Sequence record: MW481326.1
DNA from: Escherichia phage vB_EcoM-Pr103Blw
Direction: 5' to 3' (one strand)
Length of the DNA stretch: 64,000 nucleotides
The notes beneath the pieces were generated by a model that ran no database searches, had not been told where the DNA came from, and saw only the letters and a list, made by a program, of their open reading frames with translations. Shown here one piece after another: positions 18,520 to 54,977 of the stretch; position 1 is the first letter of the stretch, and every line of letters starts with the position of its first letter. The translations under genes were made by a program, and so were the position numbers.

Positions 18520-18849
18520 TTAATCTGCCAACCTTAAATTGAAATTAACACCAAATTTTTCACACACTTCCAACATATACTCAAGAGAGACATTCCCAGT
18601 GAGGTGGATTATGTTGGATACACGAGCTTGAGAGATACCACAAATTTTAGCGACTTGCTCTTGAGAAAGACCTCTGGATTTAATCTCTCTCTTAAAACGA
18701 TGTGCAACGAAGTCTCTCATTTCGTCTACATCCATTGGACAAATATAACTCTCCATTTCAGCCTCTCTATCAGCCTCCCAATCATCTTGTGGAGCATAAG
18801 GGTCAAAAACCTCATTCATCTTTCTTCTTCCGTTTACGTGAAGTATCAA
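18520..18849 (-). CDS. helix-turn-helix (XRE-like) DNA-binding protein
   Basis: C-terminal LSQEQVAKICGISQARVSNI resembles HTH_XRE motif. Confidence 0.5.
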   Translation of the reverse strand: MILHVNGRRKMNEVFDPYAPQDDWEADREAEMESYICPMDVDEMRDFVAHRFKREIKSRGLSQEQVAKICGISQARVSNIIHLTGNVSLEYMLEVCEKFGVNFNLRLAD

Positions 18850-19025: not shown

Positions 19026-19409
19026 TTAAATACCTGTGCAGCTTCTGTTTTCTAAGAAATACTCAACACCATACATAGCTTTTTGCATCAAATCTTCTTT
19101 AAACTGAATACGATGGTTAATCATGGCCTGTACATCAATATCATCATGGTGTTTCTCTTTAATGTTTGCAGATTGCAGGAAATACTCTGCAAGGACACGA
19201 TACTGATAGTCAGTTACCTTATCAGTCATCTCTGTCAAAGATTCTTCAGAGATTGGTTTAAGTAGTTCACCATTAGCTAGAGCAACACCTTTAACAATCT
19301 GGCAAGTGTCTTCTGGAACACCTGATAAGTCCACATTGGGAAGTTCTGTTGCATTGACTGGTAAATTTATTGCCATAACCATTGCAGCAGCTAATAAAAT
19401 CTTTTTCAT
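19026..19409 (-). CDS. secreted/periplasmic protein with signal peptide
   Basis: N-terminus MKKILLAAAMVMAINLPVNA typical cleavable signal peptide; AGG SD before ATG. Confidence 0.55.
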   Translation of the reverse strand: MKKILLAAAMVMAINLPVNATELPNVDLSGVPEDTCQIVKGVALANGELLKPISEESLTEMTDKVTDYQYRVLAEYFLQSANIKEKHHDDIDVQAMINHRIQFKEDLMQKAMYGVEYFLENRSCTGI

Positions 19410-19447
19410 AATGACCTCAAAGTTATATTAAATTTTGTATTACATTG

Positions 19448-19482
19448 AGTATAAAAATAAGCTATAACACCTAACTTGTCAA
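19448..19482 (-). promoter_or_regulatory. sigma70-like promoter (- strand)
   Basis: On - strand TTGACA-17 nt-TATTTT(TATACT) about 40 nt upstream of the 19409 start. Confidence 0.35.
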
Positions 19483-19630
19483 CAGATTTTATAGCTTATT
19501 TGGCAGATTTTTTTATAAGGCTACTGCCATCCTTCCATACCAGACTACACCATGCAAGACCAGACTTCACATCACCTTACTGTGCAATATATTACTTAAA
19601 AACCCTCTTAGAAGACTCTTAAGTGATGCT

Positions 19631-19670
19631 GGTGAGTATACGTTGGCTTATGCTGCTCAGTATACTCACC
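19631..19670. promoter_or_regulatory. perfect 11-bp inverted repeat (operator-like)
   Basis: GGTGAGTATAC-18 nt-GTATACTCACC; right arm overlaps -10 of the - strand promoter. Confidence 0.6.
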
Positions 19671-19686
19671 AAATTTTCTATGTCAA
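19659..19686 (-). promoter_or_regulatory. near-consensus sigma70 promoter (- strand)
   Basis: On - strand TTGACA-16 nt-TATACT. Confidence 0.5.
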
Positions 19687-19691
19687 CAACT

Positions 19692-19838
19692 TTATATAAA
19701 AGTCCTGATAACTATATGTGTTACAAAACAGAAGATTGTGAACAAGACACCCATTGCAAAGGATGTGTTCAAAAGTTTACTTGCTATGTAAGACAACACA
19801 AAGACAACTAATGCAAACAGAATGATTGTGCTTAACAT
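19692..19838 (-). CDS. small hydrophobic membrane peptide (48 aa, below ORF-track cutoff)
   Basis: ATG 3 nt after ligase stop; MLSTIILFALVVFVLSYIASKLL... two hydrophobic stretches. Confidence 0.35.
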   Translation of the reverse strand: MLSTIILFALVVFVLSYIASKLLNTSFAMGVLFTIFCFVTHIVIRTFI

Positions 19839-19841
19839 AGT

Positions 19842-20945
19842 TTACTCATAATCCCTAATAACTAGCCCAACAGGAAACTGTAAAGAACCCTTACGAGTCA
19901 TCTTCTGGAACTGAACCGTTAAAGGTTTCCCGATAAACTCTTCAGGATGCTCAGCAAGATACTGTTTCTTCTCATGAGTAGTCTTCCATGAGACATCTAC
20001 AAAGACGTTAGGAAGAGTCTCTACAACGAACTTACCGTGACCACGTTTATCAGTCTTGACACCAGTCACTTTAAACTCTTCAGTGTGCATCTTCTTGTGC
20101 TTAATCAAGAAGTATGAACGGTGACAACACTCATAGAAAGATTCTTCAGAGATTGAACGGTACATTGCACCTTCAAACTGAGCTTCAACCCACTTATCAT
20201 GGGCTTCATCAAACTCTTCCCAAGAATTTACACGACGAGACTTAACAGGAACAACTTTACAGCCGTCTCTGAAGTCATTCAATGGTGAAGTCTCAATAAT
20301 ATCTCTACGCTCAGGCCACGTCTTAGTACTGTCACAGATATCATACCAGTAAAACTTGAGTAGATGTCGGTCAGGATTGTCTTCATTTTTAATCATGGAG
20401 ACAATATCTTCTAAGTCCAACCCATGAGCATAGATTTCACCATCAAATTCATCAACATCTTTATGGAGCCTCAACATTGCCATAATGTCAGGTATTAGCT
20501 CAGTAGGAATTTTATAAATAGTGTTCTCACGAGAATATGCTGTAAATACACTACCAATACTTAAGTGTCTTGAAATTCTACAACGTACACCATCCAGTTT
20601 CGGTTGAGCATCAGCAGGGAACTTCAGATACTTTGCATGACTAACCTTTGCAGCATCATGAGCAAGCTGTACACCTACCTTCTCAGTATTCTGTGCAGAC
20701 TCTTTTGTGTAAGCATAACCTTTGCGGTCTACTTGTTTCTTGTACTTAGCAGAAACTTCAAAGAGAGCTTGCTGTTCAGCGTTACGCTCATTCTTTTTAC
20801 CAATGTTTTTAGGTTCTGCTGTATACTCTTCAAACATCATCTTGCCATTTTCTTTACCGTAGGTTGTAATAACTTTGTCACCTACAGCAACGCATGACCA
20901 GACGTTAAAAGAGCCGTCTTTATTTTGTTTGTACAGTATTGTCAT
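19842..20945 (-). CDS. ATP-dependent DNA ligase
   Basis: 367 aa; adenylation motif KLDGVR (lysine nucleotidyltransferase motif I). Confidence 0.85.
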   Translation of the reverse strand: MTILYKQNKDGSFNVWSCVAVGDKVITTYGKENGKMMFEEYTAEPKNIGKKNERNAEQQALFEVSAKYKKQVDRKGYAYTKESAQNTEKVGVQLAHDAAKVSHAKYLKFPADAQPKLDGVRCRISRHLSIGSVFTAYSRENTIYKIPTELIPDIMAMLRLHKDVDEFDGEIYAHGLDLEDIVSMIKNEDNPDRHLLKFYWYDICDSTKTWPERRDIIETSPLNDFRDGCKVVPVKSRRVNSWEEFDEAHDKWVEAQFEGAMYRSISEESFYECCHRSYFLIKHKKMHTEEFKVTGVKTDKRGHGKFVVETLPNVFVDVSWKTTHEKKQYLAEHPEEFIGKPLTVQFQKMTRKGSLQFPVGLVIRDYE

Positions 20946-21480
20946 TTAACTCACCTTGAAGCGTATGCTTCCTTACAGGAATGATAATGCCAGTCTCTGA
21001 AAGTGCCTCTCCATATGGTTCGAAGCACTGTTCAGGTAAATTGATAATACCTCTCCCATAGAGGTCTATGAAGTCACCATCTTTTGTTTTGTAAGCAATC
21101 TTACCTCTAATGCCAAGTTTATACAACTTTAAAGAGCCATCACAATATTTTACACAATCTCTAAACTGCACTTTAAAAGCATATTTAGAAAACCTTTCAT
21201 ACAAGTCGCTTAAAAGTGCTCCAATGTTATCAAATTGTGGTGTGCATAGATTCTCGCAAATATTCTCAAACTCTTCATAGAAGTCTTCATAATTTAATGG
21301 CGTAGCATTTGTCTCATACCAAAACTGAAGTATAGCTCTCTTTTTGGGTGCTTTGTCTGAATAATCAGCCTTCTTTATTTTATACCAAGACCTACGAAGA
21401 CTATAATCATTAAGTCTTAAGTGTATGCACCTTAAGTTATGTTCAAATTCTTTATGGTTAAAGTGTTTAGTGTATATCAT
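20920..21480 (-). CDS. hypothetical protein
   Basis: Track ORF 20920..21513 starts at TTG; ATG at 21480 has GAGG SD and sits 2 nt after upstream stop. Confidence 0.45.
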   Translation of the reverse strand: MIYTKHFNHKEFEHNLRCIHLRLNDYSLRRSWYKIKKADYSDKAPKKRAILQFWYETNATPLNYEDFYEEFENICENLCTPQFDNIGALLSDLYERFSKYAFKVQFRDCVKYCDGSLKLYKLGIRGKIAYKTKDGDFIDLYGRGIINLPEQCFEPYGEALSETGIIIPVRKHTLQGELNDNTVQTK

Positions 21481-21482
21481 AA

Positions 21483-21674
21483 TCAGGCCTCTGAGTGATA
21501 CCAAGTATTGCAAGCATTACATGCGTAAAGCTCTAAGTCATTTTTATCTGGTTTATGAAAACAGTTTGCTCCGCAGTGGCAACGAAATGGTTTTCCACCA
21601 ACTGTCAGGATGAAGGATTGAACCTTTCCATCAGGAGTTCGTACAGCATTTTTATGCTTATCTTCTTTACTCAT
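21483..21674 (-). CDS. zinc-ribbon protein
   Basis: 63 aa with CHCGANCFH ... CNACNTWYH cysteine/histidine clusters. Confidence 0.45.
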   Translation of the reverse strand: MSKEDKHKNAVRTPDGKVQSFILTVGGKPFRCHCGANCFHKPDKNDLELYACNACNTWYHSEA

Positions 21675-21834
21675 TTGTGCTCTTACCTTTGTCAGATTTC
21701 ATATAGGACATGTTACTATTCCTTTTAATAAAATGTACAACGCATTTTGGTGTATCTTTTGCATCTTTGATGTGCAACCTTTCGAAGCTGTGTACTGTGA
21801 AGATTGCATCTGTCATTGTTTGCTTAGTTTTCAT
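21667..21834 (-). CDS. small protein (55 aa, below cutoff)
   Basis: ATG overlaps stop of upstream gene (ATGA); fills otherwise empty 160-bp gap. Confidence 0.25.
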   Translation of the reverse strand: MKTKQTMTDAIFTVHSFERLHIKDAKDTPKCVVHFIKRNSNMSYMKSDKGKSTNE

Positions 21835-22037
21835 TTTCTCTTACCACCAATCTCTACGTCAATAACTTGAACATCACCAGCAACATCAAACTTATGAATG
21901 ATGCTTTCCACAGTGTAAGTCCAACCCTCGATGCGAACCAACTCACCTTCTCGTGGGACGATTGGATTACGTTGAGCTACGGTTGTAGTGGAGTGAACAA
22001 CATCATAACAATAGATGTAGTTTACTAAGACTTCCAT
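21831..22037 (-). CDS. hypothetical protein
   Basis: Track ORF 21831..22136 would overlap lipoprotein gene by 89 nt; internal ATG at 22037 has GAGG SD and follows lipoprotein stop. Confidence 0.45.
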   Translation of the reverse strand: MEVLVNYIYCYDVVHSTTTVAQRNPIVPREGELVRIEGWTYTVESIIHKFDVAGDVQVIDVEIGGKRK

Positions 22038-22047
22038 CGTGAAAACC

Positions 22048-22305
22048 TCACTCAATAACCGTAGTATGTGATTGACCATTTTTGCCATAGCTATAAGATG
22101 TTGTTGTTTGAGAGTTTGGGCATCTGACAACAACAATATCTCTGCTTATAGCATCACCATTGAGTTTGTAGATTTTGCAGTCTTGCATCTCTGGAGGAAG
22201 GCTGTAAGAAGCATCTTTGTTTTCATAAGATGGGTTGCAGCCAGCCAGAAAAATTACTCCAAGTGCAACCATTGCTTTCACACAACTCTTAACCTTATTG
22301 TTCAC
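22048..22305 (-). CDS. lipoprotein
   Basis: GTG start with AGAGAGG SD; signal peptide with lipobox (MNNKVKSCVKAMVALGVIFLAGC). Confidence 0.5.
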   Translation of the reverse strand: MNNKVKSCVKAMVALGVIFLAGCNPSYENKDASYSLPPEMQDCKIYKLNGDAISRDIVVVRCPNSQTTTSYSYGKNGQSHTTVIE

Positions 22306-22441
22306 GATAGTCTACCTCTCTGTATGTTTTTAAATAGTGAGTGATGAGTTCTGGTAATTCACTACGTTTAACGTTTGAACGAAGAAGTGTCCAGTCAAAA
22401 CCTTTACCAACCCTTCCCCAGAGACTGTACATTTTCTTCAT
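22295..22441 (-). CDS. small protein (48 aa, below cutoff)
   Basis: ATGA overlap with upstream stop, GGAG SD; overlaps lipoprotein start by 11 nt. Confidence 0.25.
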   Translation of the reverse strand: MKKMYSLWGRVGKGFDWTLLRSNVKRSELPELITHYLKTYREVDYREQ

Positions 22442-22656
22442 AGCAACTCCAGAATATCAATACGTTCACCTTTGAGTACTCCAGTACGGTCTTTTGCAAT
22501 CTTACCGTCAACGATAAGGATGTGTGTAGACCTTAAAGCGTCGTTGTTAAAGGTTTTTACGAACTTGCTAGGCATGACTACAATGGACATCTCCTGAATT
22601 AACTCTGGAGTATAGCAGTTATCATGAAGTTGCTGAATAACGTCTGCAAGTGTCAT
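22438..22656 (-). CDS. small conserved protein, paralog 1 of a pair
   Basis: ATG at 22656 (track start 22671 is TTG); MTL... N-terminus and C-terminal DGKIAKDRTGVLKGERIDILELL shared with paralog 2. Confidence 0.55.
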   Translation of the reverse strand: MTLADVIQQLHDNCYTPELIQEMSIVVMPSKFVKTFNNDALRSTHILIVDGKIAKDRTGVLKGERIDILELL

Positions 22657-22681
22657 TTTTGATGTCTCCAATATTCAATAT

Positions 22682-22861
22682 CTACAAGTTCTTGTGCAAT
22701 ACTTTTAAGGTTACTTTAAGGAAAACTTTCTCACCACCAGACAGGGAAGTGTTATCAACGAGTCTATTCATTCTCTCAAACAACTTCTGCTTACGGTTCT
22801 TGATAGTTTCCTTTGAAGCACCTTTCATCATTGCTGCATGGGTTCTTCCACGGTGGCTCAT
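22682..22861 (-). CDS. small basic protein (59 aa, below cutoff)
   Basis: ATGA overlap with paralog 2 stop; MSHRGRTHAAMMKGASKETIKNRKQK...; lies between the two paralogs. Confidence 0.35.
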   Translation of the reverse strand: MSHRGRTHAAMMKGASKETIKNRKQKLFERMNRLVDNTSLSGGEKVFLKVTLKVLHKNL

Positions 22862-23067
22862 AGCAAATTCTCGATGTCTACACGCTCACCTTTCAAGTAT
22901 CCTGTCTTATCTTTTGCGATTTTCCCTCCAGCAATAAAGATATCTACTGTACGCAGAACTTCAGGGTTTACTCTATAACCACTGCAAATAACAATAAGCA
23001 TGTCTTCAATCTCTTTTTGAGAATAACCTGCACATTGCAACTGAACTTCAATCTCTGAAAGCGTCAT
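22858..23067 (-). CDS. small conserved protein, paralog 2 of a pair
   Basis: 69 aa; strong AGGAGG SD; C-terminus GGKIAKDKTGYLKGERVDIENLL. Confidence 0.55.
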   Translation of the reverse strand: MTLSEIEVQLQCAGYSQKEIEDMLIVICSGYRVNPEVLRTVDIFIAGGKIAKDKTGYLKGERVDIENLL

Positions 23068-23128
23068 ATGACCTCCTATACAAGATACAGTATAAGGTAC
23101 TCTTCCGTGAGCACCTTGTCAATACTAA

Positions 23129-54466: not shown

Positions 54467-54814
54467 ATGACATTTAAAGAGTTCTGTCAAGCTACTTTCA
54501 TAATTGTTTTCTTAGTTGGGGCAGGTGTCTGGGGAGGATACTCTTACAGAGACTACCAAGTTGCTGAAGCTGAGTTAAGCAATGAGAAACTAATAAGTGT
54601 TGCTAAAGATGCTTATCAGGAAGGTTTAGCCACACTCAGCACCAATTACAAAAATGATTTGAAAGATGTGCTTGCTAAGAATAAGCACACAAAAGAGGTA
54701 CTAACATATGAAAAAACTAAGCCAGAGTTTTATAATGTTTGTGTTACTGATAATTATGTCAGGGTGTTCAACGAACAAAGTGAACAGTACATTCAAAAAC
54801 TACCAAGTAAGTGA
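54467..54814 (+). CDS. putative i-spanin (Rz-like)
   Basis: 115 aa; N-terminal TM (ATFIIVFLVGAGVWGGY) then coiled-coil periplasmic domain; o-spanin-like gene embedded at its 3' end. Confidence 0.5.
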   Translation: MTFKEFCQATFIIVFLVGAGVWGGYSYRDYQVAEAELSNEKLISVAKDAYQEGLATLSTNYKNDLKDVLAKNKHTKEVLTYEKTKPEFYNVCVTDNYVRVFNEQSEQYIQKLPSK

Positions 54815-54977
54815 GAGTGACAAGTACACTCAAGAAGAGTCAAGATTCACTGTCAAAGGTAATACTGGTAGTGATGTGGCAGCAGCCCTTGAGTTTTATC
54901 GTGATGGTTTTTACCAGTGCACAATCAAAGCTAATAACCTTATTGATATGATTTTATTAGGAAATAAACAGCAATGA
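54708..54977 (+). CDS. putative o-spanin (Rz1-like lipoprotein)
   Basis: 89 aa; lipoprotein signal with lipobox (LLIIMSGC); starts inside i-spanin gene in another frame. Confidence 0.5.
   Translation: MKKLSQSFIMFVLLIIMSGCSTNKVNSTFKNYQVSESDKYTQEESRFTVKGNTGSDVAAALEFYRDGFYQCTIKANNLIDMILLGNKQQ

What the first reader, a model, noticed from the sequence alone, without database searches (positions are those of the whole stretch)
19026..23067. Minus-strand cluster of small exported proteins and a paralogous pair, stitched together by overlapping micro-ORFs
Between ligase and DNA polymerase genes lie a signal-peptide protein (19026..19409), a lipoprotein with lipobox LAGC (22048..22305), two ~70-aa paralogs sharing a C-terminal GKIAKD[KR]TG.LKGER[IV]DI..LL module (22438..22656 and 22858..23067), and several ORFs just below the 60-aa cutoff whose ATGs overlap the upstream stop. 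Phage-encoded periplasmic and lipoproteins in early/middle regions are often superinfection-exclusion or receptor-masking factors. The paralog family is unfamiliar to me.
Basis: partly seen in the sequence, partly recalled or inferred. Interest (0 to 1): 0.45.

Follow-up and report, generated by a model that had tools for sequence, protein, structure and literature searches.

The report
Small conserved genes of Felix-O1-like phage
This is the ordinary block of small, real but functionally uncharacterised genes that sits around the DNA polymerase and ligase genes of Felix O1-like phages; homologues of its conserved genes were annotated in 2010, and nothing ties it to superinfection exclusion.

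Summary
The window is a Felixounavirus (Felix O1-like) phage genome. Each matches a PHROG family of unknown function, and dN/dS against nine relatives is 0.03-0.5. Felix O1 homologues were annotated in 2010 as genes 87-94, and RT-PCR showed transcripts peaking at 25 min for those tested.

The paralogues are 46% identical over their full length (E 4e-18). They form a lineage-restricted orphan family (phrog_4230) that always lies between PolA and the ligase, with no significant match to any solved structure.

The lipoprotein (lipobox LAGC) belongs to a large phage family (phrog_902; precomputed Pfam DUF4884). It occurs in virulent phages of Vibrio, Acinetobacter, Erwinia and E. coli that are unlikely to share a receptor. 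It shows no homology to T5 Llp and is not the spanin; the real Rz/Rz1 pair is at 54467-54977.

The 127-aa protein has a conserved Sec signal peptide and a conserved Cys pair. It is a core gene lying downstream of the ligase, not between ligase and polymerase.

Four junctions have overlapping stop and start codons. One "micro-ORF" is a frameshift-truncated allele of a 69-aa gene.

The export predictions hold. The superinfection-exclusion or receptor-masking reading has no positive support and some evidence against it. Verdict: ordinary, already catalogued, function unknown.

The parts
22858..23067 (-). parA, 69 aa. Acidic cytoplasmic protein of phrog_4230. Accessory second copy.
   Evidence: PHROG E 2.7e-33. 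46% identical to parB. A copy at least 60% identical to it occurs in about 66 of 253 phage records. dN/dS 0.17-0.27 against close homologues.
22682..22861 (-). orf59. Very basic protein (pI 11.1) of phrog_5180. Frameshift-truncated allele of a 69-aa gene (Felix O1 gp94).
   Evidence: PHROG E 9.9e-32 over profile positions 1-58 of 69. A 1-nt deletion relative to the five relatives aligned changes the last ~10 residues. ATGA overlap with the parA stop codon.
22438..22656 (-). parB, 72 aa. The copy of phrog_4230 present in essentially all relatives (Felix O1 gp93).
22295..22441 (-). orf48, a 48-aa basic micro-protein of phrog_2381 (Felix O1 gp92).
   Evidence: PHROG E 5.6e-22. Found in 243 phage records; in Justusliebigvirus alia it is the N-terminal part of a 160-aa protein. 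dN/dS 0.2-0.27. ATGA overlap with parB.
22048..22305 (-). Lipoprotein precursor, 85 aa, GTG start, lipobox LAGC. phrog_902 / DUF4884 family (Felix O1 gp91).
   Evidence: PHROG E 2.9e-18. 591 phage records in many genera. 632 homologous clusters, all with a precomputed PF16225 hit. Lipobox Cys, two further Cys and P63 are invariant. dN/dS 0-0.13. An alternative GTG start at 22281 also precedes the lipobox.
21831..22037 (-). orf68, 68 aa, phrog_4427 (Felix O1 gp90). Highly conserved.
   Evidence: PHROG E 4.8e-46. 94-100% identical in 9 relatives, dN/dS at most 0.15. Felix O1 gp90 RT-PCR positive, maximum at 25 min.
21667..21834 (-). orf55, a 55-aa basic accessory micro-protein of phrog_25478.
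   Evidence: PHROG E 1.9e-37. Only 34 phage records; present in 4 of 9 relatives. dN/dS 0.13-0.52, based on few substitutions.
21483..21674 (-). orf63, Cys-rich (CxC ... CxxC), probably a zinc ribbon. phrog_5768 (homologue of Felix O1 gp89).
   Evidence: PHROG E 2.3e-40. Present in 9 of 9 relatives at 68-98% identity, dN/dS about 0.1. Felix O1 gp89 RT-PCR positive, maximum at 25 min. The zinc-ribbon reading comes from the sequence only.
20920..21480 (-). orf186, a rare and fast-diverging accessory gene inserted just upstream of the ligase.
   Evidence: No PHROG, Pfam, PADLOC or PDB match. 15 phage records at 35-81% identity and one IMG/VR locus. dN/dS 0.14-0.17.
19842..20945 (-). ATP-dependent DNA ligase (landmark gene).
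   Evidence: phrog_114, E 1.1e-93.
19692..19838 (-). tm48, a 48-aa hydrophobic membrane micro-protein of phrog_22006. Accessory.
   Evidence: PHROG E 7e-30. Hydrophobic along its whole length. Present in 3 of 9 relatives.
19410..19691 (-). Conserved, structured non-coding spacer with two sigma-70-like promoters. It separates the pol-ligase block from the next operon.
   Evidence: Promoter matches of 11/12 and 10/12. RNA fold z-score -3.1. Palindrome around the second -35 element. About 95% identical in relatives, and the site where some relatives carry a 2-gene insertion.
19026..19409 (-). sig127, a Sec-exported periplasmic protein of 127 aa, phrog_4332 (Felix O1 gp87). Core gene.
   Evidence: PHROG E 8.5e-67. 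258 phage records, mostly 95-99% identical. Signal peptide and two Cys conserved at 31-33% identity. dN/dS 0.04-0.09. Felix O1 gp87 RT-PCR positive, maximum at 25 min.

Best explanation
The interval is the standard small-gene block of the replication module of a Felix O1-like myovirus.

Shown: it consists of real protein-coding genes on one strand. They run from the DNA polymerase through the ligase and are packed with overlapping or abutting stop and start codons. A second unit follows, behind its own sigma-70-like promoters, and begins with the exported 127-aa protein.

Shown: a stable core is present in every relative examined. It comprises the basic 69-aa protein (frameshift-truncated to 59 aa here), parB, orf48, the DUF4884-type lipoprotein, orf68, the Cys-rich orf63 and sig127. 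Swappable accessory genes (parA, orf55, orf186, tm48) are inserted at gene boundaries and differ from phage to phage.

Shown in Felix O1 by others: the tested homologues are transcribed, with a maximum at 25 min.

Inferred: the overlaps give translational coupling along a polycistronic mRNA. The lipoprotein and sig127 are processed and act in the envelope or periplasm, and tm48 sits in the inner membrane. The remaining products are cytoplasmic and modify the host or assist replication.

Because its motif is conserved across phages of unrelated hosts, the lipoprotein most likely binds a conserved envelope component of Gram-negative bacteria rather than a particular phage receptor. The par family keeps its place between PolA and the ligase even in distant relatives, so it is more likely tied to replication or nucleic-acid transactions than to the envelope. 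No biochemical function is established for any of these genes.
For: - Identity of the window: 258 Felixounavirus records match at 88-95% nucleotide identity.
- Every small ORF except orf186 hits a PHROG at E 1e-18 to 1e-67.
- dN/dS is 0.03-0.5 for all of them, comparable to the ligase and polymerase.
- Junction table and promoter scan.
- Core versus accessory pattern in nine relatives and in database counts.
- Felix O1 genes 87-96 with their RT-PCR timing.
- Export signals conserved in distant homologues.
- Hydropathy and charge of each product.
- par homologues lie between PolA and the ligase in divergent contigs.
- The phage's own spanin pair is elsewhere, at 54467-54977.
Against: - No functional evidence exists for any gene in the block.
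- No terminator or transcript map was available, so the operon boundaries are inferred.
- The lipoprotein (gp91), orf48 (gp92) and gp94 were not tested by RT-PCR in Felix O1.
- The lipoprotein model has low confidence (pLDDT 57), so its fold, and any structural likeness to known exclusion proteins, is untested.
- Signal peptides were judged from sequence rules and conservation, not with SignalP or LipoP.
- The replication link for the par family rests on synteny alone.
Confidence: 0.8

Rival explanations
1. One reading: the lipoprotein and/or the 127-aa periplasmic protein are superinfection-exclusion factors. They would either mask the receptor (like T5 Llp or lambdoid Cor) or block the incoming tail machinery in the periplasm (like T4 Spackle).
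For: Both proteins are exported. Both are expressed from the replication-gene region, as T4 sp is, which lies between genes 41 and 61. Felix O1 gp87 is transcribed at mid infection. Both carry a conserved Cys pair, as expected for stable periplasmic proteins.
Against: There is no similarity to Llp or Spackle beyond the signal peptide and no PDB sequence match. The genes are not next to a receptor-binding-protein gene (compare). Felix O1 is reported to use LPS, not a protein receptor. The lipoprotein motif is conserved across phages of Vibrio, Acinetobacter, Erwinia and E. coli. sig127 is a near-invariant core gene.
Confidence: 0.15
2. The cytoplasmic small proteins (parA/parB, the basic 69-aa protein, orf48, orf55, orf63, orf186) are host-takeover or anti-defence factors. 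This would parallel the small genes that follow T7 gene 5. The variable members (parA, orf55, orf186) would reflect an arms race with host immunity.
For: Presence is patchy and divergence fast for orf186 (35-81% identity inside 89-99% identical flanks). A second diverged par copy occurs in only about a quarter of genomes. orf55 occurs in 34 records. The proteins are small, charged and lack enzymatic motifs.
Against: There are no hits to PADLOC models (which cover defence systems, not anti-defence proteins), Pfam or PDB. The core members (parB, orf68, orf63) are strongly conserved (dN/dS at most 0.19), unlike typical arms-race genes. The comparison with T7 rests on my own knowledge, not on a test.
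Confidence: 0.3
3. The par family is an accessory factor of the phage replisome or ligase, for example a polymerase- or ligase-binding adaptor. Its conserved, flexible C-terminal tail (KDRTGxLKGERxDI) would be the docking motif.
For: A par homologue lies between PolA and the ATP-dependent ligase in every lineage seen. In a divergent 57.6-kb contig, only two small genes separate pol from the ligase and one of them is par. The tail is conserved and has lower pLDDT. The gene is co-expressed with pol and the ligase in Felix O1.
Confidence: 0.2
4. The lipoprotein is the phage's outer-membrane spanin (Rz1 equivalent).
For: It is a small lipoprotein with periplasmic Cys residues. In phage 4MG its homologue follows a gene annotated as an Rz-like spanin.
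Against: The window has a canonical overlapped pair elsewhere: an Rz-like i-spanin at 54467-54814 (phrog_1152, E 8.9e-42) with a lipoprotein at 54708-54977. No i-spanin-like gene adjoins 22048-22305. Its operon neighbours in Felix O1 peak at 25 min with the replication genes; gp91 itself was not tested.
Confidence: 0.02

Closest known systems
Felix O1 genes 87-94 (Whichard et al. 2010, PMC3185647): hypothetical proteins around the DNA ligase (g88) and DNA polymerase (g96)
   Same: The genes are orthologous and in the same order. sig127 is 98% identical to gp87, orf68 96% to gp90, the lipoprotein 99% to gp91, orf48 100% to gp92 and parB 90% to gp93. orf63 is 76% identical to gp89, and orf59 83% to gp94 over its 59 residues. 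The Felix O1 transcripts that were tested peak at 25 min.
   Different: The window lacks the HNH endonuclease gene (g95). It adds parA, orf55, orf186 and tm48, and its gp94 homologue is frameshift-truncated.
phrog_902 / Pfam PF16225 (DUF4884) small lipoproteins of large virulent phages
   Same: The lipobox Cys, two further conserved Cys and the VVRCPNS..T.Y..GK motif are present, at about 80-90 aa in length. In other phages too, the gene is embedded among small genes that are mostly unannotated.
   Different: Nothing distinguishes the window copy from other Felixounavirus members. The residue after the lipid Cys is Asn here but Asp in about a fifth of homologues, so localisation may differ between members.
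T5 Llp (lytic-conversion lipoprotein that blocks FhuA)
   Same: It is a small phage lipoprotein (77-aa precursor) made by a virulent phage, with a Cys pair in the mature part.
   Different: There is no sequence relationship once the signal peptide is removed. Llp sits beside the receptor-binding-protein gene oad, whereas this gene sits between pol and the ligase. Llp targets a protein receptor, whereas Felix O1-type phages are reported to use LPS.
T4 Spackle (Sp), a periplasmic superinfection-exclusion protein
   Same: It is a Sec-exported small protein encoded among replication genes, between genes 41 and 61.
   Different: The hhalign match is confined to the 20-residue signal peptide, with probability 16.5%. 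sig127 is larger (127 versus 97 aa) and there is no PDB sequence hit.

Membership tests
phrog_4230 (par family) | Full-length match to the family profile (72 positions) | tested here: met
   parA E 2.7e-33 over positions 1-72; parB E 2e-42 over positions 1-72. The two proteins match each other at E 4e-18.
phrog_902 / DUF4884 phage lipoproteins | Profile match to the family | tested here: met
   phrog_902 E 2.9e-18. A profile search returned 632 homologues.
phrog_902 / DUF4884 phage lipoproteins | Pfam PF16225 hit on the window protein itself | tested here: inconclusive
   Precomputed PF16225 hits sit on all homologues. However, hmmscan against the session's Pfam-A copy returns none, even at E up to 10.
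phrog_902 / DUF4884 phage lipoproteins | Lipobox with invariant Cys, two further conserved Cys, and the C-P-N-S motif | tested here: met
   C23, C43, C62 and P63 are invariant in 113 sequences. A lipobox is present in all or nearly all of 121 homologues.
Llp/Cor-type receptor-masking lipoproteins | Lipoprotein signal peptide | tested here: met
   LAGC lipobox preceded by a charged n-region and a hydrophobic core.
Llp/Cor-type receptor-masking lipoproteins | Sequence homology of the mature domain to T5 Llp | tested here: not met
   hhalign of the mature-domain profile against mature Llp gives probability 1.4%. The 82% probability obtained with full-length sequences covers the signal peptide only. 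Lambdoid Cor proteins were not compared.
Llp/Cor-type receptor-masking lipoproteins | Gene adjacent to the receptor-binding-protein gene | tested here: not met
   T5 llp abuts oad. Here the neighbours are orf48 and orf68, between pol and the ligase.
Llp/Cor-type receptor-masking lipoproteins | Binds and inactivates the phage's outer-membrane protein receptor | not testable with these tools
   The literature states that Felix O1 targets LPS and not protein receptors (PMC8594841), which argues against this. A binding assay is needed.
Llp/Cor-type receptor-masking lipoproteins | Structural similarity to Llp | tested here: inconclusive
   The AF2 model has pLDDT 57. Foldseek against the PDB gives a best E of 2.2 and does not return Llp, but a model of this quality is too poor to count as a test.
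T4 Spackle-like periplasmic exclusion proteins | Sec signal peptide and periplasmic location | tested here: met
   MKK, a hydrophobic core and VNA|T, conserved in divergent homologues together with two Cys. This is a prediction only.
T4 Spackle-like periplasmic exclusion proteins | Sequence homology to Sp | tested here: not met
   hhalign probability 16.5%, with only signal-peptide columns aligned.
T4 Spackle-like periplasmic exclusion proteins | Inhibits the tail-associated lysozyme of superinfecting phage | not testable with these tools
   Requires biochemistry or genetics.
Two-component spanin, outer-membrane subunit (Rz1) | Gene embedded in, overlapping or adjacent to an i-spanin gene | tested here: not met
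   The neighbours have no transmembrane segment. The real overlapped Rz/Rz1 pair lies at 54467-54814 and 54708-54977.

The most novel reading that the evidence does not exclude
The DUF4884/phrog_902 lipoprotein may be a broadly conserved envelope effector of large virulent phages of Gram-negative bacteria. It would bind a conserved periplasmic or outer-membrane host component, not a phage-specific receptor. The effect could be protection of the infected cell (receptor-independent exclusion, resistance to lysis from without) or disabling of an envelope-based defence. That would be a new functional class, present in hundreds of phages from Vibrio to E. coli.
Probability: 0.15. Interest if true: 0.55.

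Novelty: already known. Interest (0 to 1): 0.17.

Why it matters
As it stands the finding matters little. Most of these genes have near-identical copies in dozens to hundreds of sequenced Felix O1-like phages; only orf186 is rare. Homologues of the conserved genes have been annotated as hypothetical proteins since 2010.

Two points have modest value for phage biologists:
1. A small lipoprotein family with an invariant Cys pair and CPNS motif is shared by virulent phages of very different hosts and has no assigned role. That makes it a reasonable target for a simple expression-and-challenge experiment.
2. The pol-ligase interval of Ounavirinae is a compact hotspot where accessory genes (parA, orf55, orf186, tm48, HNH endonucleases) come and go around a fixed core. 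That is useful for anyone engineering these therapeutic or diagnostic phages, or looking for anti-defence genes.

Tried and rejected
- Pfam, NCBIfam and PADLOC scans of all small proteins found nothing above noise.
- PDB sequence searches with single sequences and with profiles for the lipoprotein, sig127 and orf186 found nothing significant.
- Foldseek of the par model against BFVD returned its own family and a weak match to a phiEco32 73-aa protein (E 0.017). I tentatively identify that protein as phi32_100, which shares the motif IIDG..VK.R.G. The par HMM does not detect it and it is not near the polymerase gene, so I kept it only as a lead.
- AF2 of the lipoprotein with 113 sequences reached only pLDDT 57, so the Foldseek search against the PDB was uninformative.
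- The apparent 82% hhalign probability to T5 Llp was an artefact of the signal peptide.
- I considered the o-spanin idea because of the 4MG context and rejected it after finding the real Rz/Rz1 pair.
- tRNA and Rfam scans of the window were empty.
- Literature searches for Felixounavirus lipoproteins, exclusion, transcriptomes and DUF4884 found nothing functional.
- The fusion partner of orf48 in phage alia has no Pfam hit.
- The hairpin at 19595-19623 is single-copy in the window, so it is not a dispersed repeat.

Full report
**Identity of the window.** The 4.2-kb interval matches 258 phage records, almost all Felixounavirus (Felix O1-like myoviruses of Escherichia, Salmonella, Shigella and Citrobacter), at 88-95% nucleotide identity. 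No record covers more than about 85% of it. Annotated relatives show the same order on one strand: DNA polymerase, a run of small hypothetical genes, the ATP-dependent ligase, a gap, then further small genes leading to dihydrofolate reductase and thymidylate synthase. The window has no tRNA genes and no Rfam matches.

**Checking the observation.**
- Junctions read from the sequence are as follows. There are ATGA overlaps at parA/orf59, parB/orf48 and orf68/orf55. There is an 8-nt overlap at orf55/orf63, 11 nt at orf48/lipoprotein and 26 nt at orf186/ligase. The remaining gaps within the pol-to-tm48 block are 1-25 nt.
- The two ~70-aa proteins are paralogues over their full length: 46% identity, E 4e-18.
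- The 85-aa ORF carries FLAGC. A six-frame scan of the whole window with a lipobox rule finds only this ORF and one other.
- The 127-aa ORF begins MKKILLAAAMVMAINLPVNA|TE.
- Of the 12 small proteins, only three have a hydrophobic segment: the lipoprotein, sig127 and the 48-aa tm48.

Errors in the finding:
- The 127-aa gene lies downstream of the ligase, after a 282-nt spacer with its own promoter-like sites. It is not between the ligase and the polymerase.
- The exported proteins are two genes 2.6 kb apart, not a cluster.
- The 186-aa ORF at 20920-21480 was not mentioned.

**Are the small ORFs genes?** Every one except orf186 matches a PHROG family at E 1e-18 to 1e-67. All of these families are labelled "unknown function". 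I aligned each gene by codon to its homologues in nine relatives. Nei-Gojobori dN/dS is 0.03-0.5 for all of them, including the 48-, 55-, 59- and 63-aa ORFs. These values are comparable to the ligase and the polymerase C-terminus.

The Felix O1 genome paper already lists the conserved genes as genes 86-96:
- gp87 is 127 aa, gp89 72 aa, gp90 68 aa, gp91 85 aa, gp92 48 aa, gp93 72 aa, and gp94 69 aa with pI 10.4.
- RT-PCR was positive for genes 87, 88, 89, 90, 93 and 96, with maximum expression at 25 min.
- Genes 91, 92 and 94 were not tested (PMC3185647).

One nuance applies to the window's 59-aa ORF. It carries a 1-nt deletion relative to all five relatives aligned. The deletion changes the last ~10 residues and removes the canonical ATGA overlap with parB, so this ORF is a truncated allele of the 69-aa gene.

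**The paralogues.** Both belong to phrog_4230.
- A word-indexed search of 5.8 billion proteins returned 134 clusters; all 120 listed are 82-99% identical to parB, and every named one is a Felix O1-like phage protein or a hypothetical protein in an enterobacterial assembly.
- A full HMM search of 1.84 billion cluster representatives returned ten. The family is therefore restricted to this lineage.
- parB-type copies occur in essentially all 253 matching phage records. A copy at least 60% identical to parA occurs in about 66 of them.
- In two divergent contigs the homologue still lies between PolA and the ligase. In one of these it is one of only two genes between them.
- An AF2 model has pLDDT 77. 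It shows two short helices, a strand, a helix, a beta-hairpin and a conserved but less confident tail, KDRTGxLKGERxDI.
- Foldseek against BFVD returns the family itself and a weak match to a phiEco32 73-aa protein. I tentatively identify that protein as phi32_100, which shares the motif IIDG..VK.R.G. HMMER does not detect it.
- The proteins are mildly acidic and have no hydrophobic segment.

The function is unknown. The constant position between the polymerase and the ligase is the only clue.

**The lipoprotein.** It belongs to phrog_902.
- tblastn finds it in 591 phage records. These include Vibrio T5-like phages, Acinetobacter phages, the Vequintavirinae phage 4MG, jumbo phages of about 350 kb, and Pectobacterium, Erwinia and Klebsiella phages.
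- A profile search finds 632 clusters, all carrying a precomputed PF16225 (DUF4884) hit. My own scan of the available Pfam copy did not reproduce that hit.
- The lipobox Cys, two further Cys and Pro63 are invariant, and VVRCPNS..T.Y..GK is nearly so.
- The residue after the lipid Cys varies: Asn here, Asp in about a fifth of homologues.
- In other phages it also sits among small, mostly unannotated genes; the few named neighbours give no clue to function.
- The profile's apparent 82% hhalign probability to T5 Llp comes from the signal peptide. With mature domains only it falls to 1.4%.
- T5 llp abuts the receptor-binding-protein gene. This gene does not.
- The AF2 model reached only pLDDT 57, so structural comparison is uninformative.
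- It is not the o-spanin. An Rz-like i-spanin (phrog_1152, E 8.9e-42) with an overlapping lipoprotein lies at 54467-54977.

**The 127-aa protein.** It belongs to phrog_4332.
- It is present in 258 records, mostly at 95-99% identity, and at 31-34% identity in Suspvirus and Mooglevirus.
- The divergent homologues keep MKK, a hydrophobic core, an A-x-A-type cleavage site and two invariant Cys, although the core sequence itself has changed. That pattern is what a functional signal peptide and a periplasmic disulfide would produce.
- dN/dS is 0.04-0.09.
- There is no PDB sequence match. The match to T4 Spackle is limited to the signal peptide.

**Core and accessory genes.** Across nine relatives the following are always present: the 69-aa basic protein, parB, orf48, the lipoprotein, orf68, orf63, the ligase, sig127 and orf70. 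The rest are patchy:
- parA occurs in 3 of the 9 relatives.
- orf55 occurs in 4 of 9 and in 34 phage records.
- tm48 occurs in 3 of 9.
- orf186 occurs in 3 of 9 and in 15 phage records, at 35-81% identity inside flanks that are 89-99% identical. It has no PHROG, Pfam, PADLOC or PDB match and only one IMG/VR locus.
- Some relatives carry an HNH endonuclease after pol. Others carry a two-gene cassette in the ligase-sig127 spacer.

**The spacer at 19410-19691.** It is about 95% conserved in relatives. It folds more stably than all 200 shuffles (z -3.1). It contains two sigma-70-like promoters and a palindrome around the second -35 element. Where the cassette is inserted, a 38-nt hairpin segment is duplicated on both sides.

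**Interpretation.** The best-supported account is that this is the ordinary, mid-infection small-gene block of the Felix O1-type replication module. A fixed core and exchangeable accessory genes are tightly packed for coupled translation.

The export of two proteins is well supported by sequence and conservation. The specific claim of superinfection exclusion or receptor masking is not supported, for four reasons:
- There is no homology to the known examples that were tested (T5 Llp, T4 Spackle).
- The genomic context is wrong for an Llp-type gene.
- Felix O1 is reported to use LPS rather than a protein receptor (PMC8594841).
- The lipoprotein family's motif is conserved across phages that are unlikely to share a receptor.

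A receptor-independent envelope function remains possible. It is the most novel reading that the evidence does not exclude.

**Verdict.** The features are real, but they are already catalogued and their function is unknown. Interest is low.

Noticed in passing
window 22682-22861 (deletion near 22715): The 59-aa ORF differs from the five relatives aligned by a 1-nt deletion. The deletion frameshifts the last ~10 codons and truncates a conserved 69-aa basic protein (Felix O1 gp94). The normal ATGA overlap with parB is replaced by a 25-nt gap. This could be a real mutation or a sequencing error.
   Followed up: yes
window 20920-21480: This 186-aa ORF lies directly upstream of the ligase and overlaps it by 26 nt. 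It has no PHROG, Pfam, PADLOC or PDB match. It occurs in only 15 of 50,697 phage records and one IMG/VR contig, at 35-81% identity, while its flanks are 89-99% identical. It is a rare, fast-diverging accessory gene under purifying selection (dN/dS about 0.15).
   Followed up: partly
window 19410-19691: This conserved non-coding spacer holds two sigma-70-like promoters (19686..19659 and 19482..19454). A 13-bp hairpin overlaps the first -10 element, and a second hairpin lies at 19595-19623. An 18-nt palindrome (19455-19472 / 19484-19501) brackets the second -35 element and may be an operator for the HTH regulator encoded downstream at about 18520-18819. The RNA fold z-score is -3.1. Relatives insert a 2-gene cassette here, flanked by a duplicated 38-nt hairpin segment, which resembles promoter/stem-loop-mediated cassette shuffling.
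   Followed up: partly
window 54467-54814 and 54708-54977 (+): This is the phage's spanin pair: an Rz-like i-spanin (phrog_1152) with an overlapping, out-of-frame 89-aa lipoprotein (lipobox MSGC). It is the only other lipobox ORF in the 64-kb window.
   Followed up: yes
window 23068-23128: The 61-nt spacer between the polymerase stop codon and parA contains TTGACA and TATACT separated by 22 nt, which is too far apart for a canonical sigma-70 promoter. An 8-bp imperfect inverted repeat (AGGTGCTC...GAGTACCT) lies in between. Its role is unknown.
   Followed up: no
L025:1495-1977 (Escherichia phage alia, Justusliebigvirus): The 48-aa micro-protein (phrog_2381) forms the N-terminal third of a 160-aa protein in Stephanstirmvirinae phages. 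The fused C-terminal part has no Pfam match.
   Followed up: partly
L029:25521-25742 (phiEco32 gene phi32_100): This 73-aa protein ends in HYLIIDGVLVKSRHGW, which resembles the parB motif HILIVDGKIAKDRTGV. It is probably the BFVD entry B0FIR2, which Foldseek matched weakly (E 0.017, TM 0.55). It may be a remote relative of the par family outside Ounavirinae, but HMMER does not detect it.
   Followed up: partly
homologues P0121-P0250 and window 22048-22305: The precomputed Pfam annotation PF16225 (DUF4884) on all lipoprotein homologues could not be reproduced with the session's Pfam-A library, even at E up to 10. This is a discrepancy between data sources, not a biological finding.
   Followed up: partly
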